From an uncultured Mollicutes bacterium (GTDB taxonomy: Bacteria > Bacillota_I > Bacilli_A > RFN20 > CAG-826): a stretch of 64,000 bases of DNA. The notes beneath the pieces were generated by a model. The model was given only the letters and a program-made list of their open reading frames with translations, searched no databases and was not told the origin of the DNA. The translations under genes were made by a program, and so were the position numbers. The stretch is taken from contig CAMESG010000004.1 in NCBI GenBank assembly GCA_945936135.1, forward strand, positions 50,520 to 114,519, read 5' to 3'. Positions within the stretch are counted from its first letter, which is position 1; every line of letters begins with the position of its first letter. Shown here one piece after another: positions 228 through 40,160 of the stretch.

Positions 228-3200
228 GTGAAAAAAGAAAGTTCCTTCGCTCTACGTTCCATCCTCGGGATCACGCTCGGGGCGGTTTTGCTTGCTTCCT
301 GCTTTCACGTAACTCGCCCTTTCACCCCCTCAGAAAAAGAGGACGATAACTCGACGGCTTCTTCTCTTTCGCCAGATGGAGAAGAGGGAAAACACCGCTT
401 CCTTCAAAGCTTTTCAAGCCTTGCAAAAGGTGGTGTCCAGTTAAAGATCGATGAGGGGTTCTATACGATTGACGCGAAAGTCGAAGGCAAAGAAAACCGA
501 ATCGATTTTCAAAACGCAGAACTTCGTTTTGCCTTAGAAGGGTTTTCCCTCCATGACCTTTATTTATCGTTGGACGCCCCAATTTCCTATAACGGTGTCT
601 CCCGTTATCTCGGATTATATCTTGCAAACGACGAGCTCTATTTCAACGTCGCTTCGCCAGAATCCAACGAAGGTCAAGGCTTCAAAGGGCCTTCCATCAA
701 ATACAAAACGGACCTCACGCCTTACGTCGGCGAATACGATGATCCGACAGGTGGGACAACCCAATACGAATACGGGCACCTTTCCTGGATCATCGAAAAC
801 ATCCTGGAAACCATTCAAAGCTCCACGGGATCGGCCGTCTCGATCCCCAAGAAGGATGGCGAGGAAACGACGGCCATCGATTGGACTCATGTTTTATCTT
901 GCTTCGATACAATTGAGGAAACAAGGGTCGATTCCTTGCCTTACTTCACCCTCAATCTCTCGTTAAAAGAGGGTGGAATCGTTTATCCGATTGGTTTCTC
1001 GGCGGACGCCAACTTCGCTTGGACCGGGGTCGATTTCCCCGCAGCGACTTCTTCTACCCCGGAATTCTCCTTGACGCCTACCAGCCGAATCAAACTCAAG
1101 GCCTCGGTTGATAGCGAGGCTGCGCCCGTCGACTGGAAAAAGCCAAGCGACGAAGGAAGTTATCTTCCTCTCCAAAACTCTTTGGATCTCTTCACGAGAA
1201 TCACCCGTTACATAAGCAGCGCCTCGTTCAACATCGATCTCGACATGACGATTCTCCATCACGAGGACGAAATCCCGAGCACCCCGACTTCTTTTGGACG
1301 CGGTGAAGTCGACGAAGGACTGAGCCTGAAGGCGAACGCATCCGTCGACACGGAAGGTGCTTCCTTGGATTCTATCGGGGCGAAGCTCCAGATGGAATAT
1401 CTTAAACGCCAAGTCGAAGGAGATCTCGTTCAATACCTTCCAACAGGCCAAACGAGTTCCATCGATTTCGAATACGAAAGCGCCGCGATTGATCCCAATC
1501 ATCGCATCTTTGGACGGCTGAATAACGCCACGGCTTTCCGCACCTCAAAGACGGTGATGGATGCCTTGGTTGCAAAGTTCTCAGGGCTCAACGTCGGCAA
1601 AGCGGATAACGCTTCAAACGGCATGTTCGCCGGCTTGCTTTCTTCGATGGATGCGATTGCAGTTCAAATCGAAGAATTGAAGAAAAGCGCCCTTGGCTCT
1701 GGGTTGATCGATGGGCATTATGAATCCGTCCTTGAAATTCTTACGGGCATCGAGATCTCGGATAACCTTTGGAAATTGACCTTGGACCTTTCCAAAGCCG
1801 GACTTTCGGGCATGATCTATCTGACACTTTCCGGCAAAGAAGGAGATTCCCTTGCAAGCATCGTCTTCGAGAAAGCGAAGTTCGCCTTCTTCGAATTCTC
1901 GGGAACGTTAACCGTTGGGGAATATCAAGAGATTGCCATTACGGACAAGGATTCGTTTAACGAATTGACCCACGTTCCCTCGATCAGCGATCAACTCGGC
2001 ATGCTCGTTTCTTCCAAGCAAGTCCAGATCAATTTCTCGGGGTATTCTTTGAAAGAAGGCACGACAGCGACCAACAAATACACGGATAACACCTATCAGA
2101 GGACGGAGGAAGGCAGTGAATTCAGCGGCACTTTTGCTTTGGATTTAGAGAAATCCATGGGCGCCGGCAATCTTGCCATCATCAACCGCATGGCCAATTA
2201 CTTTGAAAAGCACTACGTGGATGTTGACGTCAGCGGACCGGCGATCGATGGAAGCGACGCTTCAACCGACAATCAAATGTTCCTCCGCTACCATAGCGAC
2301 GGTGCAAGCAACGGACCTTTGATGGGTCGCATGTCGATCACATCTTTAAACGAAGTGATCCAATTGGTCTTGAACCTGACCCAAAGCAACGACCCACGTT
2401 ATAAACGTTTGGGCAACCTTTTCTCTAGCGACGGCGCCACTTCTTTGATCAGCAAAATCCAGCAAGGCAAGTTCTTAGACGCCCTTTCTAGCGAACTTGT
2501 GAAATCCCTCTCCATTCAACCCGAACTCACAACCCTTGTCCTGCCAAAATCGATGCTCGGCCTTTACGACGATCTAACGATTCGCCTCCACTTTGGGGAC
2601 AAGACCTTCCATAGCGATGATGAAGGCAACGTGAACATAACCAATGCCTTGAACACCATCGAAATCGAGACAAAATCAGGCAGCGAGGAAGCGATCAATG
2701 ACCTCTACATCAAAATCGATCTTATTGAAGTCGATATCAATGAAACTGCCGTTGACCCCGAAACTAATAACCCGATTCTTTACCGGAACTTTGGGCAGAA
2801 TCCGAACCTTGGCTCTTTCACGGACTTCACTAGCCTTTCTTCGTTAGTAGAACACCTTCTAGGAACAATCTCCTTGGGCGTCACGGATACGAACAACCTG
2901 ACGACCTACCATCTTTCGGGAAACGTGCAATTGAAGGCTCTCGGCATCAATGCAGGCAACGTCGGAATCGATGCCTTCATCTCCTTAGACGGCATTCAAG
3001 TCAACGTCTATGGTCGTATTCACACGCCGAAAGTCATCGTTGTCGCCAATAGGGAAACCTGGACCGACTTCTTCTACCACACCGATGGAAACGATCCAAC
3101 AGGAACGCTATATTTCAGGCGTTTACAGAAATGGACTTCTTGGTTTCAAGATCAATACGAACTCACCGAACACAAATTAACAGGAGAGTATTTCGCAGAA

Positions 3201-3743
3201 AACCTTTTGGATTGGGTGTTGTTCTACATGCTCGGTTTAAGCAACACCATCTATGATGCGGTCCACAAAGAAACCAATCCTTCCGAAGGCATTAACGGGG
3301 AAGACGTTTTAACTTCTTATGGATCCAAAGGCACCGCGGAGGAGCCGATTTGGTCTATTGGAATGAATATCCAAGAAGTCGGTCAGCTTTCTGTCTCCAT
3401 GAACCTTGACGCCGATCTTTACGGAGCGAGAATCAACGCCAATTCCAACGCCGATCATGCGATTCGCAGAATGACGGGGAAACTCACCGTTCTTTCGATC
3501 ATCACCATGAACCCTGACCTTTCCGTGACAAACCTCACCTCCAATGGGGATGGTTATGCTTATCACGATTCCTGGACGGACACCGCATATAACCAAGCCA
3601 CCGTTGATCTAGACAAAGGAAAAACCCAGACTGGTGGCGTCGACTCCTTATTCCATTCCTACTTCTACGACGAAGGCAATTCCGCTTACATCGCGAAGAT
3701 CCAGAACATGGGCTATACGACAGCCCTTCCGCCCATCAATTGA
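228..3743 (+). CDS. large predicted lipoprotein (1171 aa) of unknown function
   Basis: GTG start preceded by AGGTAGG; signal peptide ending in the lipobox LLASC; long uninterrupted ORF with no recognisable catalytic motif. Confidence 0.55.
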   Translation: MKKESSFALRSILGITLGAVLLASCFHVTRPFTPSEKEDDNSTASSLSPDGEEGKHRFLQSFSSLAKGGVQLKIDEGFYTIDAKVEGKENRIDFQNAELRFALEGFSLHDLYLSLDAPISYNGVSRYLGLYLANDELYFNVASPESNEGQGFKGPSIKYKTDLTPYVGEYDDPTGGTTQYEYGHLSWIIENILETIQSSTGSAVSIPKKDGEETTAIDWTHVLSCFDTIEETRVDSLPYFTLNLSLKEGGIVYPIGFSADANFAWTGVDFPAATSSTPEFSLTPTSRIKLKASVDSEAAPVDWKKPSDEGSYLPLQNSLDLFTRITRYISSASFNIDLDMTILHHEDEIPSTPTSFGRGEVDEGLSLKANASVDTEGASLDSIGAKLQMEYLKRQVEGDLVQYLPTGQTSSIDFEYESAAIDPNHRIFGRLNNATAFRTSKTVMDALVAKFSGLNVGKADNASNGMFAGLLSSMDAIAVQIEELKKSALGSGLIDGHYESVLEILTGIEISDNLWKLTLDLSKAGLSGMIYLTLSGKEGDSLASIVFEKAKFAFFEFSGTLTVGEYQEIAITDKDSFNELTHVPSISDQLGMLVSSKQVQINFSGYSLKEGTTATNKYTDNTYQRTEEGSEFSGTFALDLEKSMGAGNLAIINRMANYFEKHYVDVDVSGPAIDGSDASTDNQMFLRYHSDGASNGPLMGRMSITSLNEVIQLVLNLTQSNDPRYKRLGNLFSSDGATSLISKIQQGKFLDALSSELVKSLSIQPELTTLVLPKSMLGLYDDLTIRLHFGDKTFHSDDEGNVNITNALNTIEIETKSGSEEAINDLYIKIDLIEVDINETAVDPETNNPILYRNFGQNPNLGSFTDFTSLSSLVEHLLGTISLGVTDTNNLTTYHLSGNVQLKALGINAGNVGIDAFISLDGIQVNVYGRIHTPKVIVVANRETWTDFFYHTDGNDPTGTLYFRRLQKWTSWFQDQYELTEHKLTGEYFAENLLDWVLFYMLGLSNTIYDAVHKETNPSEGINGEDVLTSYGSKGTAEEPIWSIGMNIQEVGQLSVSMNLDADLYGARINANSNADHAIRRMTGKLTVLSIITMNPDLSVTNLTSNGDGYAYHDSWTDTAYNQATVDLDKGKTQTGGVDSLFHSYFYDEGNSAYIAKIQNMGYTTALPPIN

Positions 3744-4589: not shown

Positions 4590-6371
4590 ATGAATCAAAA
4601 CCACAATTGGGATCTTACCTACTTCTACAAAACCGAAGAGGAATTCCAACGGGATCTTGAATCCTTCAAGAAACTCATTCCTTCCGTTGCTTCTTTTCAA
4701 GGAAAGATCGCTTCGGAAGAGGGACTTACGGGCTATCTAACCCTCGATAAGGAAATCACGAAGATCTACATCAAACTCGCCTTCTATTCTTCGATGCGCG
4801 CCGACTTGAACCGCAAAAACTCGGAGAACGTCGCCGCGGAATCCAAGGTTGAATTGGTCCTTCAAAACCTCATCAACGTTTCGAGCTATTTCGAACCGGA
4901 GCTCCTAGCCTACGGCAAAGAAAACGTCGAAGCCTTCTTGGCCAAGCACCCCGAATTCGACGAATACTCCTTCTCCTTCGAGAAGCTTTTCCGCGGCCAG
5001 GCCCACGTCTTGACCGCGGATAAAGAAGCCCTTCTCTCCGCGTTTAGTCCTTTGAGTTCGGAGGCCGGGAACCTCTATTCCATGCTGACCGTCGCGGACT
5101 ACAAACCAAAGAAAGTCACGTTATCCGATGGATCCGAAATCGAAGTCAACCTCTCCAACTGGACCTCGATCATGGGGAAAACGGAAAAGCCAGAAGACCG
5201 TCAAGCGATCTTCGAATGCCTCTATTCGTATTATGATGACCGCAAAAACGTCTATGGAGAGATCTACAATACGGGACTTCAAATCCAACTCGCCAACATG
5301 CGCACGCGCGGGTACTCTTCTATTTTAGAGGAGCATCTCTTCCATAACGCGATCCCAACCTCCGTCTTCCATTCCTTGGTCGACGTCGCTTCTAGCGATG
5401 AAGGCACCGCTCCTCTGAAGCGTTATTATGAGCTTCGCCGCAAGGCTTTAGGTCTTACGAAGCATCGCTCTTACGATCGCTTCCTCCAACTTGCGAAGTC
5501 CGAAAAGACCTACACCTATGAAGAAGCGCGCGATCTCTTCTTCTCCTCGATTGCAGGAATGCCAAATGATTTCCAAGAAAAGGCGCATGAAGTCTTAAAA
5601 GAAGGCTTTGTTGACGTCAATCCCGCCCCCGGCAAGCGCACCGGCGCCTATTCCAACGGAGGCTATGACTTCCACCCTTACATTCTTTTGAACTTCCAAG
5701 GAGAATTGGACGATGCCTTCACCCTTGCCCACGAAGCAGGCCACTCGATCCACACCCTCTATAGTGAAGAAGCCCAAAAGACCTTGAAGCAAAATTACAC
5801 GATCTTCGTCGCGGAAATCGCCTCGACCTTCAATGAGCACAACCTTTTGGATTACCTCCTCAACAGCGGAACCCTTTCGAAGAACGACCGCATCGCTCTC
5901 CTTCAAAAGGCGATTGATGAAATCTGTTCGACTTTCTACCGCCAGACCTTATTCGGACACTTCGAATACGAAGCTTCCCTCCTCGCGGAGAAAGGCGAAC
6001 CCGTTAACGCAGACGTCCTTTCGAAGATCATGATCGATCTCTATGCCCGTTATTACGGTATCGACATCAAGGAAGAGAAGGTCAAGCCCTTGGTCTGGGC
6101 CTATATTCCTCACCTCTTCTACACCCCATTCTACGTCTATCAATATGCGACGAGTTTCACGAGTTCCATGTTGATCTATGAACGCGTGAAAGAAGGAAGG
6201 GAAGGCGCGATGGATGGCTACCTCTCCTTGCTTCGCAGCGGCGGAAGCGATTACCCCGTCGAGCAAGTCAAAAAAGCAGGCGTCGATCTCACAAGCAAGG
6301 AACCCTTCCTCGCGGTCGTCAAACGCATGAGCGAACTCGTCGATCTCCTTGCAAAGGAACTTGGAGAATAA
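4590..6371 (+). CDS. pepF: oligoendopeptidase F (M3B family)
   Basis: 593 aa; HEAGH zinc-binding motif (TLAHEAGHSIH); length and overall pattern typical of PepF. Confidence 0.9.
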   Translation: MNQNHNWDLTYFYKTEEEFQRDLESFKKLIPSVASFQGKIASEEGLTGYLTLDKEITKIYIKLAFYSSMRADLNRKNSENVAAESKVELVLQNLINVSSYFEPELLAYGKENVEAFLAKHPEFDEYSFSFEKLFRGQAHVLTADKEALLSAFSPLSSEAGNLYSMLTVADYKPKKVTLSDGSEIEVNLSNWTSIMGKTEKPEDRQAIFECLYSYYDDRKNVYGEIYNTGLQIQLANMRTRGYSSILEEHLFHNAIPTSVFHSLVDVASSDEGTAPLKRYYELRRKALGLTKHRSYDRFLQLAKSEKTYTYEEARDLFFSSIAGMPNDFQEKAHEVLKEGFVDVNPAPGKRTGAYSNGGYDFHPYILLNFQGELDDAFTLAHEAGHSIHTLYSEEAQKTLKQNYTIFVAEIASTFNEHNLLDYLLNSGTLSKNDRIALLQKAIDEICSTFYRQTLFGHFEYEASLLAEKGEPVNADVLSKIMIDLYARYYGIDIKEEKVKPLVWAYIPHLFYTPFYVYQYATSFTSSMLIYERVKEGREGAMDGYLSLLRSGGSDYPVEQVKKAGVDLTSKEPFLAVVKRMSELVDLLAKELGE

Positions 6372-6393
6372 GGCTTTCTAGATCCAACAAAAA

Positions 6394-6415
6394 ACGGCGC
6401 ATCTGCGTCGTTTTT
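6394..6415. terminator. bidirectional rho-independent terminator between pepF and the convergent membrane-protein gene
   Basis: Hairpin ACGGCGCA-tc-TGCGTCGT flanked by an A-run upstream and T5 downstream. Confidence 0.55.
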
Positions 6416-6422
6416 CGTTTGT

Positions 6423-7520
6423 TTAGGCTTTTTTCTTCCAGGCTTCGCCAATCTTATCCGGAGCCGGGATTGGGCTGACATCGGTCTTGGTGCGGTCCAT
6501 CGTTAAGTTCGAAGCAGGCTTCTTTAGAGGCGCAGGCCCCTGAACGATGATCGGCGTCGCCGGAGCCTTCTTCATGGCGAGCAAGGTCAAATCTTCTTTG
6601 GCCGCCACTTCCCCAGCGTTGCTCAATTTGTTTTGTTGAGCGAGCATGTCGAGGATTTCACGCTGGACAGGGAAGTTTGCTTGACCATTCAGATAGCCAA
6701 ATTCCTTTTCGCGGATCGAATGATCCACCTTGCCGACAAAATAGGCGAAGTAGGTTAATTCGTCCTTTGTAAGGGGCGAGGTTTTTACTTTCTCGAAGAC
6801 GTAGGGGTAGAGCAAATCCAACATCTCGTCGTACTTCTTCTTGCGGTAAAGCTTGAAGAAATTGTTGCGGACTTCCGAGGGCTTCGGGACGAAAGGCTCG
6901 CCGAAGTGTTTGGAGCAATAACGGATCGAACGACGACGCATCGAATAGATCTTACGGTACTTGAAGGGAGGGATCACGCAATAGAGAATCTCGAAGATCG
7001 AGGCGGCACCGATGAAAGCGAAGTCCGCGTAAAGGGCAAGGCCAATCCAAGTGTTTTGCATTTGGCTCACCAATTCCGGATTGAATTGCGCGGCAACGGG
7101 AGGAACCAAGAAGAGCGCCCAGAAAACGGGGAGCACCCACTGGAGGGCCCAAATGGGAATCGCGAAGATAAGGAAGATCGCGCGTTTCATGACCATCTTC
7201 CTCGCCATCGAGGCAGGAACGATCAAAAGAATGCAAGTCGCCGCCAGGTGAAGGGAATAGTAATTGATGAAATCCACCAAGGTGGAATCCGCGTTAGGAA
7301 CATGAAGAACAATGCCTTCCATGAAGGTGAAAAGCTCCGGCTTATAAAGCCAAGCGAAGAAGAAGCCCATCGCAAGAGCGAGGAAGATCAAAGAAACGAA
7401 ACCTTGGACGACGACAGAAGTTTTTGGGCGACTGCCATAGCCCTTCTCTAAAAATGCGCGGTTAACCATAGCATTTATACTATAGAGGAAATTTTCCTTA
7501 AAGAAACGCCTTTTTTCCAT
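6423..7520 (-). CDS. polytopic membrane protein of unknown function
   Basis: 365 aa with several hydrophobic helices and a charged C-terminal tail. Confidence 0.5.
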   Translation of the reverse strand: MEKRRFFKENFLYSINAMVNRAFLEKGYGSRPKTSVVVQGFVSLIFLALAMGFFFAWLYKPELFTFMEGIVLHVPNADSTLVDFINYYSLHLAATCILLIVPASMARKMVMKRAIFLIFAIPIWALQWVLPVFWALFLVPPVAAQFNPELVSQMQNTWIGLALYADFAFIGAASIFEILYCVIPPFKYRKIYSMRRRSIRYCSKHFGEPFVPKPSEVRNNFFKLYRKKKYDEMLDLLYPYVFEKVKTSPLTKDELTYFAYFVGKVDHSIREKEFGYLNGQANFPVQREILDMLAQQNKLSNAGEVAAKEDLTLLAMKKAPATPIIVQGPAPLKKPASNLTMDRTKTDVSPIPAPDKIGEAWKKKA

Positions 7521-7524
7521 AAGG

Positions 7525-7554
7525 AAAAGGGGATTCGCCTCAAGGCAAACCCCC
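7525..7554 (-). terminator. rho-independent terminator of clpB
   Basis: Minus-strand RNA GGGGGUUUGCC-uuga-GGCGAAUCCCC (11 bp with G-U wobbles) followed by UUUU. Confidence 0.5.
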
Positions 7555-7570
7555 TTTAGGAAAATTTCGC

Positions 7571-9697
7571 TTATAACACGGGTTTAATCACGAGCTTTTC
7601 GCCATCGCGATCAAGGATCATATCGTGATCAATCGGTAGGGCACCTTTGATGATTTGCTCCGCCAAATAGGTCTCAACTTGATCTTGAATGAATCTTTTG
7701 ATTGGACGAGCGCCGAATTCTTCGTTGTAGGATTCGTCTAAGATCCAATCCTTTAAGGCATCGGAGAAGGTAATCAAATAATGCCCTTCTACCAAACGGG
7801 TCGAAAGCTCTTGCAGCATCTTGTCAACGATCTTCTTTTGCGCTTCCTTCCCTAATGGGTTGAAGTAGACGATTTCATCGATTCGGTTAAGAAACTCGGG
7901 CTTGAAAGTATGGGCCAAAAGTTCTTGTGCTTCCCCTTTGTTTCCTTCAAGCAAGGCTTTGGAACCAAGGTTGCTCGTCATGATAATAACCGTGTTCTTG
8001 AAGTCGACGATATGGCCTTGGCTATCCGTGAGTCTTCCTTCGTCAAGCACCTGAAGCAAGAGGTTGAAGACTTCGGGATCCGCCTTTTCAATCTCATCGA
8101 AAAGAACAATGGAATATGGGTTTCTGCGCACTTTTTCGGTCAATTGACCGCCTTCTTCGTAGCCAACGTAGCCTGGCGCAGCGCCAATCAAACGAGAGAC
8201 GCTGTATTTCTCCATGTACTCAGACATGTCGATGCGGATGATGTTGTTCTCATTATCGAACAAGGCTTCCGCTAACGCCTTCGAGACTTCCGTTTTGCCT
8301 ACGCCCGTTGGACCGAGGAAAAGGAAACTGCCAATTGGGCGATTCGGGTTCTTAATCCCGGCGCGTTGACGGAGAATCGCGTTGGAAACCAAGCGGATTG
8401 CTTCGTCTTGCCCAATGACACGCTTCGCTAAGGTATCGCGAAGATCCAAGACCTTTTCTTTCTCACCTTTCGCGATTCGGGCAACAGGAATGCCGGTCAT
8501 CTTGGCGACGATCTCCGCGATTTCTTCTTCATCGACGACTTCGTTGACCAAACGATCCGTTTCGGCGTTCTTCTCCTTCATCGCGCGAAGTTGAGCTTCA
8601 AGCTCAGGAATGACTTGGTATTGAAGTTGCGACGCCTTTTGGTAGTCGCCGTTTTGGAAGTTCGTCTGGAGATCGAATTTCGCGCGTTCAAGTTTTTCCT
8701 TCAAACCTTTCGCGTTCGCGACATCTTTCTTCTCTTCTTCCCAGAGGTTCATAAGGCTTTGAAAGTTCGCCTTTTCTTTGTCGAGTTCTTGTTCCAATTC
8801 TTCAAGACGCTTCTTAGAACTTTCGTCCTTTTCCTTCTTGAGAGCTACGCGCTCAATCTCCAATTGACGAATTTTGCGGTTGGATTCATCAAGTTCCGTC
8901 GGCATCGATTCGATTTCGACCTTGATGCCAGCGCAGGCTTCATCCAAAAGGTCAATGGCCTTATCCGGCAAGAAGCGGTTCGTGATGTAGCGATTCGAAA
9001 GGGTGGCTGCGGCCACCAAGGCGCCATCGGTGATTTGAACGCCGTGATAGGATTCAAAACGTTCCTTCAAGCCGCGAAGAATGGAGATCGTATCCGCAAC
9101 GGTGGGCTCTCCGACCATGACGGGTTGGAAGCGGCGTTCTAGCGCGCGGTCTTTTTCAATGTATTTGCGATACTCATTAAGCGTGGTCGCGCCAATGCAT
9201 TCGATTTCGCCACGCGCAAGCAAGGGTTTCAGCATATTGCTCGCATCAAGGCTGCCTTCCGCGTTGCCCGCCCCAACGATCAAATGGATTTCATCGATGA
9301 AAAGGATGATCTTTCCTTCCGATTCCTTGATCTTGTTTAAAACCGCTTTCAAGCGTTCTTCGAATTCGCCGCGGTATTTCGCCCCGGCGACAAGGCTCCC
9401 CATATCGAGTTCATAGATTTCTTTATCCTTCAGAGAAGCAGGGACATCCTCTTTTACAATGCGTTCGGCCAAACCTTCAAGAATCGCGGTTTTGCCAACG
9501 CCTGGTTCGCCTAAAAGGACAACGTTGTTTTTCGTCTTGCGCGAAAGAATTTGAATGACTTTCCGGATTTCGTCGTCGCGCCCGATCACGGGATCAACCT
9601 TGCCCGAAGCGACGAGTTCGTTGAGATTGCGCCCGAAACGATTCAAGATTTCGGGATCGTCCATGTAATTTTCTGGACCCATTTGTTGAAATTGCAT
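7571..9697 (-). CDS. clpB: ClpB-type AAA+ disaggregase lacking the N-terminal domain
   Basis: Two Walker A boxes ([16 protein letters not shown]); coiled-coil middle domain between the two nucleotide-binding domains; 708 aa with no N-domain. Confidence 0.9.
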
Positions 9698-14475: not shown

Positions 14476-15045
14476 GGCTGCTTTCTTCTTTTCTTCCAAG
14501 CGGTGGAGGCGAAGATTCGAGAGGTTGACCGCGATCCACCAGATCAAAAGGAGCATCGGCAGCACCATCAAAATCCAATAGGTGATGTTGGCAAAATCGA
14601 AAGGCGTATACGGCCCTAGATCGTTTTCGAAACTCGAAACATAGCTGACCGTGGCGATCAATGCCGCCATGGTTCCAATCGCCATCGCAATGAGCCCCGG
14701 GAACATCAAGGCGTTCAACTTTCCGCAGGTGCGAAAGTTTGGCTTGAAGGCAACGAATACGCCAACGAAGCATAGATACGCCCAGGAAATCACCGTAAGG
14801 GCAAAAAACGTGGCGCTAAGAGGCGAAGCAAAGATCAATTGATAGCCCGATAACGAAGAGGCGGCAATTCCTTCGCCGACAAGGATTTCTGGCGCGACCG
14901 GAAATAAAGGAAAGGCGAAGCTAATCGCGAAAAACACGGGGAAGAAAGCCAAACAAATGGGAACCCAGTAAAAGCCTTTGTTCTTTTCCGGCAGGTTATG
15001 ATCCTTGTCTTCCATCGAATCGACGTTGGTATAGCTGTTCTTCAT
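14425..15045 (-). CDS. polytopic membrane protein
   Basis: Hydrophobic ORF of 206 aa; overlaps the preceding ORF on the opposite strand. Confidence 0.45.
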   Translation of the reverse strand: MKNSYTNVDSMEDKDHNLPEKNKGFYWVPICLAFFPVFFAISFAFPLFPVAPEILVGEGIAASSLSGYQLIFASPLSATFFALTVISWAYLCFVGVFVAFKPNFRTCGKLNALMFPGLIAMAIGTMAALIATVSYVSSFENDLGPYTPFDFANITYWILMVLPMLLLIWWIAVNLSNLRLHRLEEKKKAALSQVGEKKGEEDVRKQ

Positions 15046-15653
15046 CGAAATCTCTCCAATAAATAGCGTAGCATAAGCCTCGCGGTCAAGGGCACGACAT
15101 AGTGCGCGGTATCTTCCAAAATGTTTGGAATTTCCTTCAAAGGAACAAGGCGGCAGCGGATGTCTTCAAATTCTTCGAGCCGTTTCTCTTTAAATTCAAC
15201 AATGCGAGCAAGAAGCAAGGAATCGATCTCATCGCTTAATCCGCTAGAGGTAGGCGAAGGAGGAGAAATGACTTCGATATCGTCGATCACAACGCCGCTT
15301 TCTTCCAATGCTTCTCGCTTTGCGGCTTCGATTTCGTCTTTATCTTGAGGATCAAGCAACCCCGCGGGGAAACTCGTCAGGTATCGTCCTAAGGCAGGGC
15401 GAAATTGAGTCGTTATGATCACTGAAACTTCTTCGGTGTTCGGATCTTGGTAATAGAGGCAAAGGACGACGGCGTCAGGGCGATCGAAATGAGGATTCTT
15501 CGCCTGCAATTGGTCAAGTTCATTCCTAGAGGCGACGAAGTAGGGATAATGGGCGATAGACCCATCCTCTTTGGTCACTTCATAATGCAAGGTGAAAAGG
15601 TTCAGGAATCGATGATCCGTTTCCTTGTCCGCTGAAAGAAATCGCCACTGCAT
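15042..15653 (-). CDS. NUDIX hydrolase (ADP-ribose pyrophosphatase-like)
   Basis: Nudix-like box GLLDPQDKDEIEAAKREALEESGV. Confidence 0.6.
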   Translation of the reverse strand: MQWRFLSADKETDHRFLNLFTLHYEVTKEDGSIAHYPYFVASRNELDQLQAKNPHFDRPDAVVLCLYYQDPNTEEVSVIITTQFRPALGRYLTSFPAGLLDPQDKDEIEAAKREALEESGVVIDDIEVISPPSPTSSGLSDEIDSLLLARIVEFKEKRLEEFEDIRCRLVPLKEIPNILEDTAHYVVPLTARLMLRYLLERFR

Positions 15654-16349: not shown

Positions 16350-17659
16350 ATGAAACAAGAAATCACACCTGAACTGCTTGCGTCGTTTGAAAAGGAAGCC
16401 GATTGCACTTCCACCCACGCCGCCATGCGCAGCGTTATGGCCCATGGTTTATCCGCTAGCGCCGTGGACGAAGGGAAGAAAAGAACCAACCCCATGGTCT
16501 TCAACCTTGAATTGAAGGCAGGAGATGTTTGCAATCAAAAGCAATCCGGCCGCTGCTGGATGTTCGCAGGACTTAATATCCTTCGCATGACCGCGATGGA
16601 AAAACTCAACGTCAAGAATTTTGAGTTCAGCCAGTGCTATCTCCAGTTCTTTGACAAACTTGAAAAGGCGAACTTCTTCTTGGAGAAGGCTCTAGAGCGC
16701 AAGGATCGCCCGCTTGATGACCCGGAGCTCGTTTATCTCTTCGATCACGCGATTGAAGATGGCGGCCACTTTGCAATGTTCAAGAATCTTGTAAAGAAAT
16801 ACGGCGTTTTCCTTCTTCCGTCATGCCCGATAGTTCCGTTTCCTCAAGCACAAAGGAACTAAACGCCTTCCTCCATCGAATTCTCGCGGCGGATTTCCTT
16901 GCGTTAAAAGAAGCCCAAGATCCCAAAAAAGAAAAGGAAGCGATGCTTCAAGACATCTATCGCCTCCTGACGATTTGCCTTGGCGTTCCGCCGAAGAGCT
17001 TCGTCTATGAATACACGGACAAAGATGAGAAGGCTCAACGCATCCAAACCACTCCAAAGGAATTCTTCGATACCTACGTCGGAGAAGAATTGGAAGATTG
17101 GGTGAGCCTCGCGCATGTACCGATGCTCCGCTTCCCGCCTTACGAGAAAGTTGGCGCCCCCTTGGTCAATAACGTTGTCGAAGGCGAGCACGCCTTCTTC
17201 TTCAACGTTAGCATGGACGAATTCAAGCATGCCGTCCTCTCTGAACTCAAAGCGGGTCGTCCCGTTTGGTTCGGCGCTGATGTCGGCGCGGAATCGCTTC
17301 GCAAAGAGGGCTTCCTTGTCAAAGACGTCCTTCGTCTTGACGAACTAACGGGAATTAATCCGAACATCGATAAGGGCCAATTGCTCGACACTCGCGTCTC
17401 CCATTGCTCCCACGCGATGGCCTTCACGGGCGCAAACATCGAAGAGGGCGGCCGCGTCTCTCGCTACAAGGTCGAGAACTCTTGGGGCGAAGAAAACGGC
17501 AAGAAAGGCTTCTACGTCATGGACGAGGCTTGGTTTGAGACGTACGTTCACCAAATCTTCGTCCGTCGCAGCTCCTTGCCGGAAGACCTGTTGAAGAAAT
17601 ACGACGAAGCGAAAGTATCGGAGGTCGGGCCCTTCAATACGCTTTGGTTACAAGACTAA
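16350..17659 (+). pseudogene. pepC: aminopeptidase C / bleomycin hydrolase (C1B) split by a 1-nt frameshift near 16815
   Basis: ORF 16350-16862 carries the active-site QSGRCWMFAG; ORF 16823-17659 carries the His region HAMAFTG; the frames join at ...KKYGV|FPSSVMP... inside the run GTTTTCC. Confidence 0.7.
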
Positions 17660-18267: not shown

Positions 18268-18346
18268 GGAAAAAAGTATATAGTAAAGCAGAACAAAACA
18301 TGAAACGTTTAGGAAAAATTCTTATACTTTGAAGGTATACATTTGC

Positions 18347-18375
18347 TTGTGCTTTCATTTAAACATTCTTATACT
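18347..18375 (+). promoter_or_regulatory. putative promoter (-35 TTGTGC, 17 nt spacer, -10 TATACT) inside a tandem 14-bp direct repeat ATTCTTATACTTTG (18318-18331 and 18365-18378)
   Basis: Hexamers and the repeat read directly from the sequence. Confidence 0.3.
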
Positions 18376-18400
18376 TTGGTTAGAAAGAACAAAAGAAACA

Positions 18401-19741
18401 ATGGAAAATCAAATTCTCTCAAATTCTAAGTCACCAACGGTATTTATTGGTGAATCCAAAGTTAACATAGACTTGATTTTGGAATGGATTTGCGCCGCTA
18501 GAAATACAAACGATATTACTCTATACATTGGCTTTGAAAATCAAAATGGAAAGATCGTTTTAAAAGGTGTTGAGGAATTTGAGAGTGTGAAAAAATCCAT
18601 ACTGGATATCCTTCGCTGCGATTCTCGCATCTCATATCACTCCTATCTTTCTTCTGATTTAATCGTCAAAGAAGACAAAGAAAAGAAAGGTTTGATTCTC
18701 ACTGTCCGCGAAGCTCCCTCAGAAGAAAAGCCCGTCAAAATTTTCGACACTCTTTCCTATGCTTTTACTCCAGCAAGCGGGGTCCATGAGATTGTTTCAA
18801 AAGACTTAAGGATCCTTGAAAATATCAAAAACCCTTATCGCGCAGACACCTCAGAATTAAGTCAATTTTCCGCAAGTATTTTGCAGACAAATGCCTACCT
18901 CAGTTTCCGTGAAATCTTCTTTAAAAATCATGGGGACTATCGTCACAAAACGCCCAAGGAATTCATGTCCTTACTCTCATTTGGAACCGCTGATTTTCAC
19001 CCTACTTATGCAGGTGCAATTTTCTTTGGTAACGACGCTCTTCTTCGCGATATCCAGCCTGGCTTAACCTACAAACTTATCATTTTGAAAAACGCTGGTT
19101 CCCAGGTGTTTTCGCCTCAAGATGGTTCTTTTGAAGGTGGGGCGCTTTCTTTTTATCAATTTGCGATCAAAAAGTTTAAAGAAACCTATCCAAAAGAATC
19201 AGACCGCGAATTTTCTAACGCTTTATGCTATGCAATTACGAATGCTAATTATGAAGAAAACGAGCCTTTGATCGTTACTTTTTCAAAGGAAAAGGCAGAG
19301 ATTTCCTTCCAAGGAATCCGTGGATATTTCCGCCTTCCGCTTCACCCTTTGCTTTCGAATTGGTTCTTGATGATAGGCGTTGGAAAACCCTATTCCGCAT
19401 ATAAATCTCCCTACGTTTTTGATTCGCTTAATTCTACTTATTCAACGATCTTCTCCTTTGAAAAAACCAAGGAAGATTCCGTAAATGCAAAGGCTACATC
19501 CCGTCGAAAAGTCGAAGATGCGATTTACAAGAAATACGCCTCCATCTTTAAAGAACCACTGGTTTCCCATTTGGCCCAATTTGAAAAGGAAACCGGCGTG
19601 AATGTCTTTGGACGCACGGAAATCCTAAATGCCACCAAAGTTTCCCCAGCGACCGCGACCTCCATCATCAAGAAAATGGAAAAATCAAAAGTAATTAAGC
19701 CAATCAAAGGACAAGGCAAAGGAAAATTTCGTTTCCATTAA
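18401..19741 (+). CDS. AlbA_2 / HATPase_c_4-like putative DNA-binding regulator with a C-terminal winged HTH, encoded on a low-GC insert
   Basis: Start taken at ATG 18401 (MENQ) rather than the TTG at 18329; C-terminal LNATKVSPATATSIIKKMEKSKVIKP; regions resembling the HATPase_c_4 core (PLHPLLSNWFLMIGVG); GC clearly lower than flanking genes. Confidence 0.45.
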   Translation: MENQILSNSKSPTVFIGESKVNIDLILEWICAARNTNDITLYIGFENQNGKIVLKGVEEFESVKKSILDILRCDSRISYHSYLSSDLIVKEDKEKKGLILTVREAPSEEKPVKIFDTLSYAFTPASGVHEIVSKDLRILENIKNPYRADTSELSQFSASILQTNAYLSFREIFFKNHGDYRHKTPKEFMSLLSFGTADFHPTYAGAIFFGNDALLRDIQPGLTYKLIILKNAGSQVFSPQDGSFEGGALSFYQFAIKKFKETYPKESDREFSNALCYAITNANYEENEPLIVTFSKEKAEISFQGIRGYFRLPLHPLLSNWFLMIGVGKPYSAYKSPYVFDSLNSTYSTIFSFEKTKEDSVNAKATSRRKVEDAIYKKYASIFKEPLVSHLAQFEKETGVNVFGRTEILNATKVSPATATSIIKKMEKSKVIKPIKGQGKGKFRFH

Positions 19742-20682
19742 GCCTTTCTCTTCTTGGTTTTTTTGGCCTTCTTGCTCTTTTCGTAATAAGGACCAATCAC
19801 TTCGGCGAGCTCATTGTCATGATAAAAGAGGTCTAATCGGAAAGGTTTCGCCGATTTTTGATCTAGCAAAGGAAGAAAAACTCTGTCACCTTCCCATAAA
19901 TTAAGGTTCATCATATCTTTCTTACATACCCAAAGAAGATCGCCTTCATCACACGGACGAAGTTCTCCTTCAAAGGATGTAACCTTGTAAAGATACATGC
20001 GTTCGGGCGGAAACAAATCGTTAAGGAAGTCGATTTTCCCTAGGTAGTGATACTTTTTTACAACGAGTCCGGTCTCTTCCAAGATCTCGCGTTTCATGCA
20101 GGCAATGGGGGATTCGCCCTTTTCGAGGTGACCTCCTACGCCAATATATTTCCCTTCGTTGGGATCTTGTTTCTTTTTGACGCGATGTAAGAAAAGGTAG
20201 CGATCGCCATCTTCTATGTAGCAAAGTGTCGTACAGGATTGAATCTTCTTTTTTAAATCGAGAACCCTTTTCCTTGTTTCAATCGCTTCTAGAATCGTCT
20301 CTACAACGCCTTCGAGGTTCTTTTCGATCTCATTGCCCCAAAAGCGGAGAACCAAATAGCCATCCTCTTTCAAGGCGCGATTCACCTCTTCGTCTCGCTC
20401 GATGTTCCGACGAATCTTTGGAATCCAATAAGAGGTGTTGGTCTTTATCTTCTCAAGGTTTTCTTCAAAGCGGTAGCCATGCCAAAACTCCGAATCGCAG
20501 AAAATCGCAATCCGGTATTGTTCTAAAAGCAAGTCAGGATGGCCGATGACGGAGGAAGAATACAAACGGTAACGGACGCCCTTTTGGCTTAACGCTTTCC
20601 GGAGTTTGATTTCGATGCCCGTGTTCTTCCCTTTGATTCGTTTCATGATTTTCGAAGACAAAGCGGGATCGCGCGGAGGCAT
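19738..20682 (-). CDS. fusion of a Vsr-type very-short-patch-repair endonuclease with a NUDIX (MutT-like) hydrolase
   Basis: N-terminal half aligns with Vsr (SSKIMKRIKGKNTGIEIKLRKAL; GHPDLLLEQYRIAIFCDSEFWHG; YWIPKIRRNIERDEE; GYLVLRFW); C-terminal half has a canonical Nudix box GGHLEKGESPIACMKREILEETGL; one continuous 314-aa frame. Confidence 0.75.
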   Translation of the reverse strand: MPPRDPALSSKIMKRIKGKNTGIEIKLRKALSQKGVRYRLYSSSVIGHPDLLLEQYRIAIFCDSEFWHGYRFEENLEKIKTNTSYWIPKIRRNIERDEEVNRALKEDGYLVLRFWGNEIEKNLEGVVETILEAIETRKRVLDLKKKIQSCTTLCYIEDGDRYLFLHRVKKKQDPNEGKYIGVGGHLEKGESPIACMKREILEETGLVVKKYHYLGKIDFLNDLFPPERMYLYKVTSFEGELRPCDEGDLLWVCKKDMMNLNLWEGDRVFLPLLDQKSAKPFRLDLFYHDNELAEVIGPYYEKSKKAKKTKKRKA

Positions 20683-20685: not shown

Positions 20686-22212
20686 TTATTCCTCAATTCC
20701 TTCCGAGCGAAGCAAGGCGGCCTCTTGGAGGCGGCGATAGTTTAACGAAGGATCCTCAAATCCTACGTTGCCCAAAATCACGGCAAACAAACTAAGCGAA
20801 GCGCCGAGGAAGCGAATCACCGCGCTTAGCGTCAGATCTTCTTTGTTTAATAGCAAAGCAGAGCTCATCTTTCCTGGCTCACCATAGAAAGCGACAACCA
20901 TCCATTCATCGGAATGGAAAGAGGAAAAATGGTCATAAACCGAAGATCCCTTCTCCGGAAGCAAGGGAGAAAAAGCCGTCGTTCCAAGAATCTCCAAAGA
21001 TTCAAATTTGGAGAGGCGATCCAAAAGATAGGATTCCCCATAAACAAAGGAATCGTCCGCTTCCAAAACGGAATGGAAGGCCAAGGCCGCGCTGTTTAAA
21101 TTTCGATAGATAAAGAAACGATAAATCGGAGAGAGCCCGGTATTCTTAGGCGTCAACACATCCTCCTTCGTAGGGATGGGAGAAGAAACGTTCTCGCTAT
21201 CAGAAGCAGGTGCCTTATTAACGGGCGAAGAAGGCGCTGGAGCTGGAGCTTTTTGTTCGACGTTCGGCTTCTCGATTTTCGATTCGGCGATCTTTGGTTT
21301 TTCTTCGTCTTTCGCCTTAATTTCCGGAGCCTTTTTCTTCGATGTTTCTTTGCGCTTATTCAAATCCTTGGGCTTCTTTCCATTGCCTTGGAAGTCCCCT
21401 TTGAACGAAGAAACATCGACGATCGTTGGCTCTTCTTGAACGTCTTCTTTTTCGATTTCTTCCTTTTGAAAACGATTCGGTTCAGGACGATGATCGCGCA
21501 AAACCATCGGCTTTTTGTTTGAATTGCCTTGGAAATTGCCTTGGAAAACAATGAGATTAACTTCTTGAGGCTCATCGTTTTCTTCTTCCTCCTCGGCTTC
21601 GATAACCTTGCTAGGCGAGGGGGCGAATTTCTTCTTTTTGTTTCCTTCGAAACTCGGGCGGGCTACCGCAGCGATCGCTTCGAAATCGACGTCGTCTTCT
21701 TGCTCGATTGGTTCAGGAGGAACGTCCAGGTTCACCGGCTTGGTTGTCCTCTTCGAAGGCTCAAAAATGGGTTTAGAAATCACGGACTCTTCCTTGTATC
21801 CGATCGTTTCCAAAAGAGTGTCGGAGTCCAAGACTTCGCCTTCTTCTTCGACGCCGAACGCCCCATGGATTTCCGCTTTGATTTCCTTGGTTTTCAAATC
21901 GATGACCAACGCGAAGCGGCGATCGTTTTTCTTTAAGAGAAGAACGGAAGTCACTTCGTCTTTCAAACTCGCGGCGAGAGGCTCCCAAGAAGAATAATCA
22001 AAATGTCCCGTCGCATCCAAATCGACATTCGTCGGTTCATAATCCTCGGGCAAAAACAAGCAATCTCGGCTCCAGGCGAGCATCCTTAAGGAGGACAAGG
22101 CCTCATTGACCTCTTCCTTTAATTCGTTGACGAAGGGATCGCCAGATAGGAAGGCAATGACCTCTTCTCCTTTGGAGGCTTCGCCCCGATAAACATAGAC
22201 CATCTTGCGCAT
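20686..22212 (-). CDS. hypothetical protein with a long Lys/Glu-rich disordered middle and repeated F[QK]G[ND]FQGN motifs
   Basis: 508 aa; structured N- and C-terminal domains flank a low-complexity KE-rich region; DNA direct repeat AATTGCCTTGGAA x2 near 21520; 3-nt gap to the Vsr-NUDIX gene. Confidence 0.5.
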   Translation of the reverse strand: MRKMVYVYRGEASKGEEVIAFLSGDPFVNELKEEVNEALSSLRMLAWSRDCLFLPEDYEPTNVDLDATGHFDYSSWEPLAASLKDEVTSVLLLKKNDRRFALVIDLKTKEIKAEIHGAFGVEEEGEVLDSDTLLETIGYKEESVISKPIFEPSKRTTKPVNLDVPPEPIEQEDDVDFEAIAAVARPSFEGNKKKKFAPSPSKVIEAEEEEENDEPQEVNLIVFQGNFQGNSNKKPMVLRDHRPEPNRFQKEEIEKEDVQEEPTIVDVSSFKGDFQGNGKKPKDLNKRKETSKKKAPEIKAKDEEKPKIAESKIEKPNVEQKAPAPAPSSPVNKAPASDSENVSSPIPTKEDVLTPKNTGLSPIYRFFIYRNLNSAALAFHSVLEADDSFVYGESYLLDRLSKFESLEILGTTAFSPLLPEKGSSVYDHFSSFHSDEWMVVAFYGEPGKMSSALLLNKEDLTLSAVIRFLGASLSLFAVILGNVGFEDPSLNYRRLQEAALLRSEGIEE

Positions 22213-37709: not shown

Positions 37710-37802
37710 GGAGACATACCCAAGAGGCCGAAGGGGACGGTTTGCTAAACCGTTAGATCGGGAATCCCTGGTGCGAGGGTTCGAATCCCTCTGTCTCCGC
37801 CA
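37710..37802 (+). tRNA. tRNA-Ser (anticodon GCU)
   Basis: 93 nt; acceptor stem GGAGACA/TGTCTCC; anticodon loop TTGCTAA; long variable arm; T-arm GGTTCGAATCC; encoded CCA. Confidence 0.9.
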
Positions 37803-38033
37803 TTACGTCAATCCGCCTCAATGTTTATTGGGGCTTTTTCTTTCACGCCCGGAGCGATGGCTTAAGGCCAACGTGAAGATCGACGAGATTTCGGACTTCC
37901 CGAAACACCGTTCTCTTTTAAATCAATAATTTTTCGTAATATTTGAGGTGCATTTCGTTAGAATTCAGGAAGGCGGAGAGAAATATGGATCTAAAGAGTT
38001 GCGAATACGCCCCCGGGCGCATTGATTTTTTAG

Positions 38034-38519
38034 GCCTACGCAAAGTTCAAGGAGAATCTTGGCGATGGCTTATTCTATCAGGCGGAGAATCTAGAAGAAA
38101 TCGACGTCCCCTCTAGCGTTATCATGATCGAGCCGGAAGCATTCGCAGGTTGCGTGAATCTAAGGCGTTGCGAACTGTGTTCCTGCAACATTCCCAAAAT
38201 CTCCCCGAACACCTTCGAAGACTGCCTTTCTTTGGAGGAACTCCGCCTTCCCGAGGGAACTCTCGTCGTTGGCTCCGATGCGTTTAAAAAGTGTTCTTCT
38301 TTGAAGGCCCTTTCCATTCCCGATTCGGTTCGGGTGATTAACAAAGGCGCGTTCGAAGGATGCGTTTCCTTAGCTACAATTGACCTAAGCGACTCCAAAT
38401 GGGAATATAAGGGCCCTTTTGGTCCGATCTCTTTCACCGGCTATTACTCAACTAGCCCCGCTCAAGCCGCTGCGGATTTGGTCTCGAAATATAGAGGCGT
38501 CTGCAAGAAATTCAAGTGA
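38034..38519 (+). pseudogene. 5'-truncated remnant of a BspA-type leucine-rich-repeat (LRR_5) surface protein gene
   Basis: Reading frame open from the stop at 38031-33 with no start codon until 38124; repeats of the form F.GC..L..I.IP.SV..I...AF..C..L. Confidence 0.5.
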
Positions 38520-38791: not shown

Positions 38792-38808
38792 TACACCAAT
38801 AGTGTATA
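38792..38808. promoter_or_regulatory. operator-like palindrome TACAC-CAATA-GTGTA about 100 bp upstream of the HTH-protein gene
   Basis: Seen in sequence inside an AT-rich spacer; the downstream gene encodes an N-terminal HTH. Confidence 0.3.
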
Positions 38809-40145: not shown

Positions 40146-40160
40146 AATACTAAGGAAGGA

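What the first reader, a model, noticed from the sequence alone, without database searches (positions are those of the whole stretch)
19738..20682. Orphan Vsr endonuclease fused to a MutT-like NUDIX hydrolase
Seen in sequence: one continuous 314-aa frame. The N-terminal ~140 aa align motif-for-motif with very-short-patch-repair endonuclease (Vsr, PD-(D/E)xK T:G mismatch nickase). The C-terminal ~150 aa carry a textbook Nudix box, GGHLEKGESPIACMKREILEETGL. Established knowledge: Vsr normally works with a Dcm-type cytosine-5 methyltransferase encoded next to it; no methyltransferase lies within this window. Inference: the fusion joins two mutation-avoidance activities, mismatch nicking and sanitising of oxidised or non-canonical nucleotides. 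Alternatively it is a Vsr-like nuclease effector with a nucleotide-hydrolysing partner domain, as seen in some anti-phage proteins. It lies 3 nt downstream of a 508-aa largely disordered protein, so the two are probably co-transcribed. It is convergent with a low-GC AlbA_2-like gene.
Basis: partly seen in the sequence, partly recalled or inferred. Interest (0 to 1): 0.6.

Follow-up and report, generated by a model that had tools for sequence, protein, structure and literature searches.

The report
Vsr nickase fused to NUDIX hydrolase
An uncultured gut bacterium carries one conserved gene that joins a DNA-repair enzyme for T:G mismatches to an enzyme that destroys damaged DNA building blocks; the fusion is real and undescribed in the papers I could search, but both parts are well known.

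Summary

The identical protein is on 22 separately assembled contigs, and more than 120 clusters share the architecture, so it is not a frameshift artefact. The host is Candidatus Enteromonas (RFN20/CAG-826). The gene sits in a conserved housekeeping neighbourhood. In sister lineages the same slot holds a stand-alone Vsr, and a separate small MutT-like NUDIX lies upstream (22/30 loci vs 0/22 fused).

No C5-methyltransferase lies in the 64-kb window or within 10 kb of any fused locus, although positive controls were detected. The fusion is absent from the phage and plasmid collections.

Best reading: a chromosomal, bifunctional mutation-avoidance enzyme, combining a T:G nickase (Asp at the H64 position, as in Neisseria V.NgoAXIII) with a dNTP-pool sanitiser. 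A defence role is unlikely. Substrates are untested, and an unlinked Dcm elsewhere cannot be excluded. It is a new variant of known kinds, of moderate interest.

The parts
19738..20682 (-). Whole Vsr-NUDIX gene (314 aa plus stop)
   Evidence: ORF listing; Pfam, NCBIfam and PADLOC domain hits; the identical product is called on 22 contigs.
20320..20673 (-). Vsr endonuclease domain (aa 4-121)
20479..20502 (-). Active-site motif FCDSEFWH (aa 61-68): Asp at the E. coli H64 position and Glu in place of the zinc ligand C66
   Evidence: Translation; alignment to E. coli Vsr; group table; the same xD[GS]xFWH type occurs in the 26 closest stand-alone Vsr representatives and in a N. gonorrhoeae Vsr.
20248..20316 (-). 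Linker helix (aa 123-145) joining the two domains
   Evidence: The AlphaFold2 model has helix 123-145, with mean pLDDT 89 and pTM 0.81. The junction length is identical in both fused groups.
19786..20238 (-). MTH1-like NUDIX domain (aa 149-299)
20065..20133 (-). Nudix box GHLEKGESPIACMKREILEETGL (aa 184-206)
   Evidence: Translation. G184, E190, R198, E199, E202 and E203 are invariant in 37 aligned members. 119 of 120 family clusters keep [RK]ExxEE.
19741..19782 (-). Lys/Arg-rich C-terminal tail EKSKKAKKTKKRKA (aa 301-314), predicted disordered
   Evidence: Translation; low pLDDT at the C-terminus. Fused proteins have 5-12 K/R in the last 20 residues, against 0-6 in stand-alone NUDIX and 2-6 in stand-alone Vsr.
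20690..20694 (-). GAGGA Shine-Dalgarno-like motif, 7 nt upstream of the ATG and inside the 3' end of the upstream ORF
   Evidence: Read directly from the sequence.
20686..22212 (-). Upstream 508-aa ORF, probably co-transcribed here, but a variable neighbour and not a conserved partner
   Evidence: 3-nt gap; no Pfam family; weak homologues (24-33% identity) in only some fused loci, absent or replaced in others; E/K/P-rich middle.
18329..19741 (+). Convergent 470-aa low-GC ORF (called as 446 aa in source assemblies); the stop codons overlap
   Evidence: Only a weak wHTH hit and a C-terminal PADLOC PDC-S72 hit at 1e-10; no AlbA_2. Homologues lie at the same position in L008, L009, L012, L014, L015 and L017.

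Best explanation
This is a chromosomal housekeeping gene of the uncultured gut lineage RFN20/CAG-826 (Candidatus Enteromonas). It encodes a bifunctional mutation-avoidance enzyme.

Vsr half. I infer that it binds duplex DNA, wedges its N-terminal helix (M13, I16) and the aromatic triad (F66, W67, W86) into a T:G mismatch, and nicks 5' of the T using the Mg-water cluster held by E24, D50, D63, H68 and D97. Because it has Asp where E. coli Vsr has H64, as in the Neisseria enzymes that cut T:G in degenerate contexts, it probably does not need one particular methylase site.

NUDIX half. I infer that it is an active MTH1-like nucleoside-triphosphate pyrophosphohydrolase that removes mutagenic (d)NTPs from the pool. 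Examples would be oxidised or methylated purine dNTPs; the exact substrate is unknown.

Linker and tail. A rigid helix fixes the two domains together. The Lys-rich tail probably adds non-specific DNA affinity, which would place the sanitiser at the site where the repair patch is resynthesised.

Shown: the gene, its domains, the intact catalytic residues, the folds (predicted model), the conserved core-genome synteny, the absence of a linked methyltransferase, and the absence from mobile elements.

Inferred: both enzymatic activities, the relaxed sequence context, and any physical coupling between them.
For: - The domains score above curated cut-offs.
- All Vsr catalytic, wedge, intercalating and mismatch-contact residues are invariant in fused proteins and in stand-alone orthologues. 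The active-site list E25/D51/H64/H69/D97, and the H64->D substitution in active V.NgoAXIII and V.Nme18VIP, come from PMC12907096. A N. gonorrhoeae Vsr at 42.5% identity carries VDGEFWH.
- The Nudix box is invariant.
- Stand-alone relatives of the NUDIX half (47-48% identity) are named 8-oxo-dGTP diphosphatase by PGAP. The same NUDIX subtype is fused elsewhere to the house-cleaning enzymes Maf and 2-thiouracil desulfurase.
- Synteny p538-ABC-ABC-(GNAT)-(p508)-Vsr is conserved in the fused loci and in 40 stand-alone-Vsr loci.
- A separate small MutT-like NUDIX lies upstream in 22/30 stand-alone loci against 0/22 fused loci.
- No hit in phages or plasmids covers 80% or more of the protein.
- The basic tail is specific to the fused form.
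Against: - No biochemical data exist for any member.
- The NUDIX half fails every NCBIfam equivalog cut-off. It lacks MTH1's N33 (here I180) and D119 (here G265), keeping only W117 and D120, so the substrate may not be 8-oxo-dGTP.
- The E. coli zinc site is absent. However, the Neisseria enzyme and the 26 nearest Vsr representatives also lack it.
- The 22/30 vs 0/22 contrast rests on one or two evolutionary events, so the Fisher p-value overstates it.
- The same NUDIX subtype is also fused to unrelated enzymes (ADH, UDPGP, APH, SASA), so fusion alone is weak evidence of coupling.
- Whether the genome has 5-methylcytosine at all is unknown.
Confidence: 0.6

Rival explanations
1. Canonical very-short-patch repair with an unlinked methyltransferase. 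The Vsr half serves one or more Dcm-type methylases encoded elsewhere in the genome, as Caulobacter VsrA does for ScmA, and corrects 5mC-deamination T:G mismatches at their sites. The NUDIX half is an independent MutT-like passenger. This overlaps with the best explanation and differs only in context specificity and in the existence of a cognate methylase.
For: An unlinked but functionally coupled vsr/MTase pair is documented (PMC12907096). Vsr of the same motif type is Dcm-linked in the control loci L080, L085 and L086 and in N. gonorrhoeae. One syntenic stand-alone locus (L056) has a PF00145 gene 9 kb away.
Against: No PF00145-like ORF lies in the 64-kb window, in 39 fused loci or in 42 other syntenic loci. 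The vsr slot is conserved across many species, whereas methylases are usually strain-variable. The Asp variant at the H64 position is the one tied to relaxed context.
Confidence: 0.2
2. The NUDIX domain works on nucleic acid rather than on free nucleotides. It could read a lesion, like the NUDIX-fold C-terminal domain of MutY, or process a DNA or RNA end (pyrophosphate removal) at the nick. The fusion would then be a single DNA-bound machine with a lesion specificity other than plain T:G.
Against: The Nudix box is complete and invariant, whereas in MutY it is degenerate (established knowledge). The closest structures are free-nucleotide enzymes, MTH1 and 3fk9, not MutY. Stand-alone homologues at 50-57% identity lack any DNA-binding partner.
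Confidence: 0.12
3. Anti-phage defence effector: a Vsr-like nuclease that nicks invading or modified DNA, paired with a nucleotide-depleting NUDIX.
For: PADLOC models hit both halves (Vsr PDLC03397 at 5e-18; candidate PDC-S07 at 9e-12), and the convergent neighbour hits candidate PDC-S72 at 1e-10. The neighbour has low GC.
Against: The PADLOC hits are no better than the generic Pfam hits. The locus is core and syntenic among housekeeping genes across many species. There is no full-length copy in the phage or plasmid collections. The residues specific for T:G recognition are all kept. The 470-aa neighbour is absent from most fused loci.
Confidence: 0.05
4. Artefact: two adjacent genes joined by a sequencing or assembly frameshift.
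For: One species representative (L039) has the two halves in different frames. A nearby gene in this window (pepC) is split by a frameshift.
Against: The identical 314-aa product is on 22 separately assembled contigs. More than 120 clusters and 31 other species genomes have the uninterrupted fusion with the same junction length. The linker is modelled as a confident continuous helix.
Confidence: 0.01

Closest known systems
E. coli Vsr (very short patch repair endonuclease; PDB 1cw0, 1vsr)
   Different: H64 is Asp here. All four zinc ligands (C66, H71, C73, C117; from my knowledge of the crystal structure) are replaced by E, Y, F and N. The gene is not in an operon with dcm, and it carries a C-terminal NUDIX domain and a basic tail.
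Neisseria V.NgoAXIII / V.Nme18VIP (relaxed-context Vsr)
   Same: Asp at the H64 position (PMC12907096). A N. gonorrhoeae Vsr at 42.5% identity has the same zinc-less xDGEFWH motif. This is the closest biochemically studied type.
   Different: The Neisseria genes stay next to cytosine-methylase genes, which are sometimes truncated. They are single-domain proteins of about 145 aa. I did not confirm which named enzyme the L088 ORF is.
Caulobacter crescentus VsrA
   Same: A vsr-like gene not genetically linked to any cytosine methyltransferase, with Asp at the H64 position (PMC12907096).
   Different: VsrA is single-domain and has a demonstrated functional partner, ScmA, elsewhere in the genome. 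No partner is known here.
MTH1/NUDT1 and its bacterial structural relatives 3fk9 (B. halodurans) and 2b06 (S. pneumoniae)
   Different: 24-28% identity. The bacterial structures have no published activity that I know of.
E. coli MutT (8-oxo-dGTP diphosphatase, TIGR00586)
   Same: NUDIX superfamily; a role in sanitising the dNTP pool is the likeliest function.
   Different: Scores 26 bits against the 97.9-bit equivalog cut-off, so it is not a MutT orthologue.
MutY (adenine glycosylase with a NUDIX-fold C-terminal domain)
   Different: In MutY the NUDIX-fold domain is catalytically dead and reads 8-oxoG in DNA. Here the Nudix box is intact, and the partner is a PD-(D/E)xK nickase rather than an HhH glycosylase.

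Membership tests
Vsr endonuclease (TIGR00632 / PF03852) | Profile score above the curated cut-off | tested here: met
   TIGR00632 121.3 bits vs 97.85; PF03852 74.4 bits vs 27.
Vsr endonuclease (TIGR00632 / PF03852) | Catalytic residues equivalent to E25, D51, H64, H69 and D97 | tested here: met
   E24, D50, D63, H68 and D97 are invariant in 34 fused and 43 stand-alone sequences. H64->D is the variant found in active Neisseria enzymes.
Vsr endonuclease (TIGR00632 / PF03852) | DNA-intercalating aromatic triad (F67, W68, W86) and N-terminal wedge (M14, I17) | tested here: met
   F66, W67, W86, M13 and I16 are invariant.
Vsr endonuclease (TIGR00632 / PF03852) | Structural zinc site (C66, H71, C73, C117 of E. 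coli Vsr) | tested here: not met
   Replaced by E65, Y70, F72 and N117. The site is also absent in a N. gonorrhoeae Vsr and in the 26 closest stand-alone representatives, so it defines the E. coli subtype and not the family.
Vsr endonuclease (TIGR00632 / PF03852) | Vsr fold | tested here: met
Vsr endonuclease (TIGR00632 / PF03852) | Genetic linkage to a C5-cytosine methyltransferase (typical, not universal) | tested here: not met
   A Dcm HMM found no hit in the 64-kb window or in 39 fused loci (+-10 kb). It detected the controls L080, L085 and L086. The rest of the genome was not searchable.
Vsr endonuclease (TIGR00632 / PF03852) | T:G mismatch-specific nicking 5' of the T | not testable with these tools
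   Needs a heteroduplex nicking assay.
NUDIX hydrolase superfamily (PF00293) | Nudix box GX5EX7REUXEEXGU with the metal-binding Glu residues | tested here: met
   GHLEKGESPIACMKREILEETGL. G184, E190, R198, E199, E202 and E203 are invariant. 119/120 clusters keep [RK]ExxEE.
NUDIX hydrolase superfamily (PF00293) | Profile score above the cut-off, and the alpha/beta/alpha fold | tested here: met
MTH1/NUDT1-like subgroup | Closest structural neighbours are MTH1-type enzymes | tested here: met
MTH1/NUDT1-like subgroup | Base-recognition residues N33, W117, D119 and D120 | tested here: not met
   W263 and D266 match W117 and D120, but N33 is I180 and D119 is G265. The substrate therefore cannot be assumed to be that of MTH1.
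MutT equivalog (TIGR00586 / PRK10776) | Equivalog score cut-off | tested here: not met
   26.2 bits vs 97.9 and 26.4 bits vs 148.
Anti-phage defence system (PADLOC Vsr / PDC-S07) | Location in variable defence islands or on mobile elements, with system partners | tested here: not met
   Core syntenic locus among housekeeping genes. No phage or plasmid record has a full-length copy. The PADLOC hits are domain-level only.

The most novel reading that the evidence does not exclude
The fusion is one coupled device for a genome that makes no 5-methylcytosine of its own. A reduced gut symbiont that salvages nucleotides from host, dietary and microbial DNA would be exposed to modified dNTPs such as 5-methyl-dCTP or O6-methyl-dGTP. 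The NUDIX half would destroy them. The context-independent Vsr half, tethered to DNA by the basic tail, would correct the T:G (or T:O6-meG) mispairs left by whatever was incorporated. This would explain a Vsr conserved at a core locus across an order without any linked methylase. It would also explain why a MutT-like gene is either encoded in the same cluster or fused to the Vsr. It would define a methylase-independent role for Vsr.
Probability: 0.12. Interest if true: 0.75.

Novelty: new variant of a known kind. Interest (0 to 1): 0.45.

Why it matters
Vsr is textbook as the partner of Dcm. Here a Vsr is fixed at a core chromosomal position across many species of a reduced, uncultured gut lineage, with no linked methylase. 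In one clade it is welded to a nucleotide-pool sanitiser.

If both halves are active, this is a compact two-step mutation-avoidance enzyme. It would also be a tractable test case for an open question: what do unlinked, relaxed-context Vsr proteins do, a question only recently opened experimentally in Caulobacter.

There is a practical point for annotation. NCBI names these proteins only 'DNA mismatch endonuclease Vsr', which hides the second catalytic domain. The bacterial MTH1-like NUDIX subgroup (3fk9, 2b06) has solved structures but, as far as I know, no assigned substrate.

Tried and rejected
1. Frameshift artefact: rejected.
2. My first C5-methylase motif regex was crude, giving two false positives and no motif-IV matches. 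I replaced it with an HMM built from three Pfam-verified Dcm proteins.
3. The invariance of CDSEFWH among the fetched loci is partly circular, because FCDSEFWH was one of the retrieval patterns. I re-checked it on the unbiased HMMER representative set.
4. One versus two fusion events is unresolved.
   - The ABC-gene NJ tree puts a second fused group (L034, L035, L037, L038) inside the stand-alone clade.
   - The NUDIX-domain NJ tree also splits the two fused groups.
   - Bootstrap support is negligible: all-fused monophyly 1-11%, main clade 11%.
   - Identical junction length, a shared GPxY motif and the shared basic tail argue for one origin.
   - My first bootstrap script timed out.
5. A link between locus GC content and fusion status: none seen.
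6. Searching with the L056 Dcm to learn whether the lineage encodes C5-methylases was uninformative. Hits are spread over Mycoplasma, Clostridia and unnamed MAGs, and none is named Enteromonas.
7. Literature searches for a Vsr-NUDIX or Vsr-MutT fusion found nothing relevant; 'VSR' mostly means viral silencing suppressors.
8. The afdb50 fold library was unavailable.
9. The promoter/terminator scan was at or below chance and uninformative.
10. I first suspected the ORFs at 34125 and 32132 might be MutS/MutL. They are an AdhE-type aldehyde/alcohol dehydrogenase and a hydrogenase-like PAS protein.
11. NCBI taxonomy has no entry under 'Candidatus Enteromonas'. I took the lineage from PMC8035907 instead.
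Full report
**1. The observation**

The window has a 314-aa ORF at 19738..20682 on the minus strand.
- Pfam places Vsr (PF03852, E 6e-21) at residues 5-72, a DUF559-type continuation at 94-134, and NUDIX (PF00293, E 1e-15) at 153-272.
- NCBIfam's Vsr model TIGR00632 scores 121.3 bits, above its curated cut-off of 97.85. No NUDIX equivalog model comes near its cut-off.
- The Nudix box GHLEKGESPIACMKREILEETGL (20065-20133) fits the consensus exactly.
- The upstream 508-aa ORF stops 3 nt before the ATG, and a GAGGA motif lies 7 nt upstream of the ATG inside that ORF.
- The downstream 470-aa ORF is convergent, its stop overlaps the gene's stop, and its GC is 0.389 against 0.494 for the window.

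The identical protein is called on 22 contigs assembled from different samples. All of the best 120 homologue clusters (54-100% identity) are 274-334 aa, and all but one truncated 274-aa member carry both domains. The fusion is therefore real.

Two side labels fail.
- The 470-aa protein has no AlbA_2 signal, even at E<=10 or in the precomputed hits.
- The 508-aa protein is disorder-like only in its E/K/P-rich middle, about residues 121-360.

**2. Source and context**

NCBI labels a 90%-identity cluster member as from Candidatus Enteromonas sp.. That genus is GTDB UBA733, order RFN20, family CAG-826 (PMC8035907). The lineage has reduced genomes, is predicted to lack peptidoglycan, and evolves fast (PMC10868615). 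The rest of the window is housekeeping: ProRS, PlsX, a Clp-type ATPase, oligopeptidase F, hydrogenases and AdhE.

In relatives the gene always occupies the same slot: an unassigned ~540-aa protein, two ABC exporters, often a divergent GNAT, sometimes a 508-aa-like protein, then Vsr-NUDIX.

A scan of one genome per species found 32 genomes with the fusion; in one of them (L039) it is frame-shifted. It also found 43 genomes in which a stand-alone Vsr of about 145 aa sits downstream of the same ABC pair. In 40 of those the ABC pair is visible, and the other three contigs have no upstream sequence. So the Vsr is ancestral at this locus, and the NUDIX is an addition in part of the lineage.

An exhaustive HMMER search of 1.84 billion representatives returned a single full-length representative plus fragments. 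All other hits match one half only. The fusion is thus a tight clade built from two large families.

**3. Is it orphan?**

I built a Dcm HMM from three Pfam-verified C5-methylases that flank non-syntenic Vsr genes (L080, L085, L086). These served as positive controls. I searched 1.44 Mb: the window plus 87 loci.

Apart from the controls, only L056 matched. It is a stand-alone syntenic locus, and the methylase lies 9 kb from the vsr. Nothing matched in the 64-kb window or within 10 kb of any fused gene.

The rest of the genome could not be searched, and an attempt through Dcm homologues was uninformative. An unlinked vsr is not unprecedented: Caulobacter VsrA lies far from its partner methylase ScmA (PMC12907096).

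**4. The Vsr half**

Aligned to E. coli Vsr, the protein keeps:
- the wedge residues M14 and I17;
- E25, D51, H69 and D97;
- the intercalating F67, W68 and W86;
- K89 and N93.

All are invariant in 34 fused and 43 stand-alone sequences.

H64 is Asp. This variant occurs in the active Neisseria enzymes V.NgoAXIII and V.Nme18VIP, which cut T:G in degenerate contexts. A N. gonorrhoeae Vsr at 42.5% identity carries VDGEFWH next to a methylase remnant.

The four E. coli zinc ligands (from my knowledge of the crystal structure) are replaced by E, Y, F and N. The same is true of the 26 closest stand-alone representatives in an unbiased set, so this is a broad zinc-less subtype and not decay. The check on the unbiased set was needed because FCDSEFWH was one of the patterns used to fetch the loci.

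**5. The NUDIX half**

Every Nudix-box residue is invariant, and 119 of 120 clusters keep [RK]ExxEE.

The MTH1 W117 and D120 equivalents are invariant (W263, D266). N33 and D119 are Ile and Gly, so the substrate cannot simply be read across from MTH1.

Stand-alone relatives at 47-57% identity occur in Clostridia, and PGAP names some of them 8-oxo-dGTP diphosphatase.

The subtype is fused elsewhere to Maf and to 2-thiouracil desulfurase, both nucleotide house-cleaning enzymes. It is also fused to unrelated enzymes.

**6. Features of the fusion itself**

A single helix (aa 123-145) joins the domains.

The fused proteins end in a Lys/Arg-rich tail, with 5-12 K/R in the last 20 residues. Stand-alone NUDIX proteins have 0-6 and stand-alone Vsr proteins have 2-6.

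Among loci with at least 9 kb of upstream sequence, 22 of 30 stand-alone loci carry a separate small MutT-like NUDIX gene upstream on the same strand. None of the 22 fused loci do. The nominal Fisher p is 2e-8, but this reflects only one or two evolutionary events. In the second fused group, the three-gene block that holds the small NUDIX is absent.

Whether the fusion arose once or twice is unresolved.

**7. Rivals**

- Defence is unlikely. The locus is core and syntenic, no phage or plasmid record has a full-length copy, and the PADLOC hits are only domain-level.
- A MutY-like reader role for the NUDIX domain is possible, but the intact catalytic box disfavours it.
- Canonical repair with an unlinked Dcm remains open.

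**8. Verdict**

This is a real, conserved fusion that I could not find described in the searchable literature. Most probably it is a housekeeping enzyme that combines a T:G nickase with a dNTP sanitiser. It is a new variant of known kinds, of moderate interest.

Noticed in passing
window 16350-17659 (+): An aminopeptidase C-like gene (Peptidase_C1_2) is split into two overlapping ORFs of 170 and 278 aa. The same split is seen in assembly L089, but the gene is intact (436 aa) in assembly L090 of the same species, and it is a single ORF in relatives. This is a strain-level frameshift, a pseudogene or a sequencing error.
   Followed up: partly
window 18329-19741 (+): A low-GC (0.389) 470-aa ORF is convergent with the fusion, with overlapping stops. 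Its only signals are a weak C-terminal winged-helix hit and a PADLOC candidate PDC-S72 hit (1e-10) at the C-terminus. Homologues sit at the same position in six related genomes (L008, L009, L012, L014, L015, L017) and are absent from the other fused loci. Its function is unknown.
   Followed up: partly
L040-L083, e.g. L043 4159-4590 and L064 4071-4517: Stand-alone-Vsr genomes carry a small (136-163 aa) MutT-like NUDIX gene in the same cluster, in some cases directly upstream of the p538-ABC-ABC genes. It has a conserved C-terminal 'S.DFDKVL' motif and is 27-36% identical to the fused NUDIX. This subtype is distinct from the MTH1-like one.
   Followed up: partly
L039 9902-11004: In the species representative UBA1624 the Vsr and NUDIX halves lie in two overlapping frames. 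This is either a natural fission or pseudogene, or an assembly frameshift.
   Followed up: no
L040, L071, L072, L025, L011 (record titles): Several 'cleanbin' genome records that carry the RFN20-type synteny are titled Escherichia coli, Alistipes shahii, Bacteroides uniformis, Parasutterella or Bacteroidales. The taxonomic labels of these bins look wrong.
   Followed up: no
window 20686-22212 (-); L012-L019 at about 5770-9500: The 508-aa upstream protein has ordered-looking N- and C-terminal parts with weak mutual similarity (32% over 40 aa, E 0.03), flanking an E/K/P-rich spacer. Some relatives have a version of about 1,240 aa in the same place, and others have none. It matches no Pfam family.
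   Followed up: partly
window 37710-42255: A tRNA gene (37710-37799) is followed by a lower-GC stretch (0.43-0.45 at 38-41 kb). That stretch holds two large ORFs with no Pfam family (38913-40145 on the plus strand, 40576-42255 on the minus strand). This may be an integrated element or a lineage-specific island.
   Followed up: no
window 15042-15653 (-): A second NUDIX gene (203 aa) shows weak NudE/ADP-compound hydrolase similarity. It is conserved a few genes downstream of the Vsr slot in many relatives (42-59% identity). It is not MutT-like.
   Followed up: partly
window 228-3743 (+): A 1,171-aa ORF matches no Pfam family at E<=1e-5.
   Followed up: no
P0145, P0230, P0218 (representative hits): The same MTH1-like NUDIX subtype is fused in other organisms to Maf, to 2-thiouracil desulfurase and to YunG. 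Together these suggest a wider set of composite nucleotide house-cleaning enzymes.
   Followed up: partly
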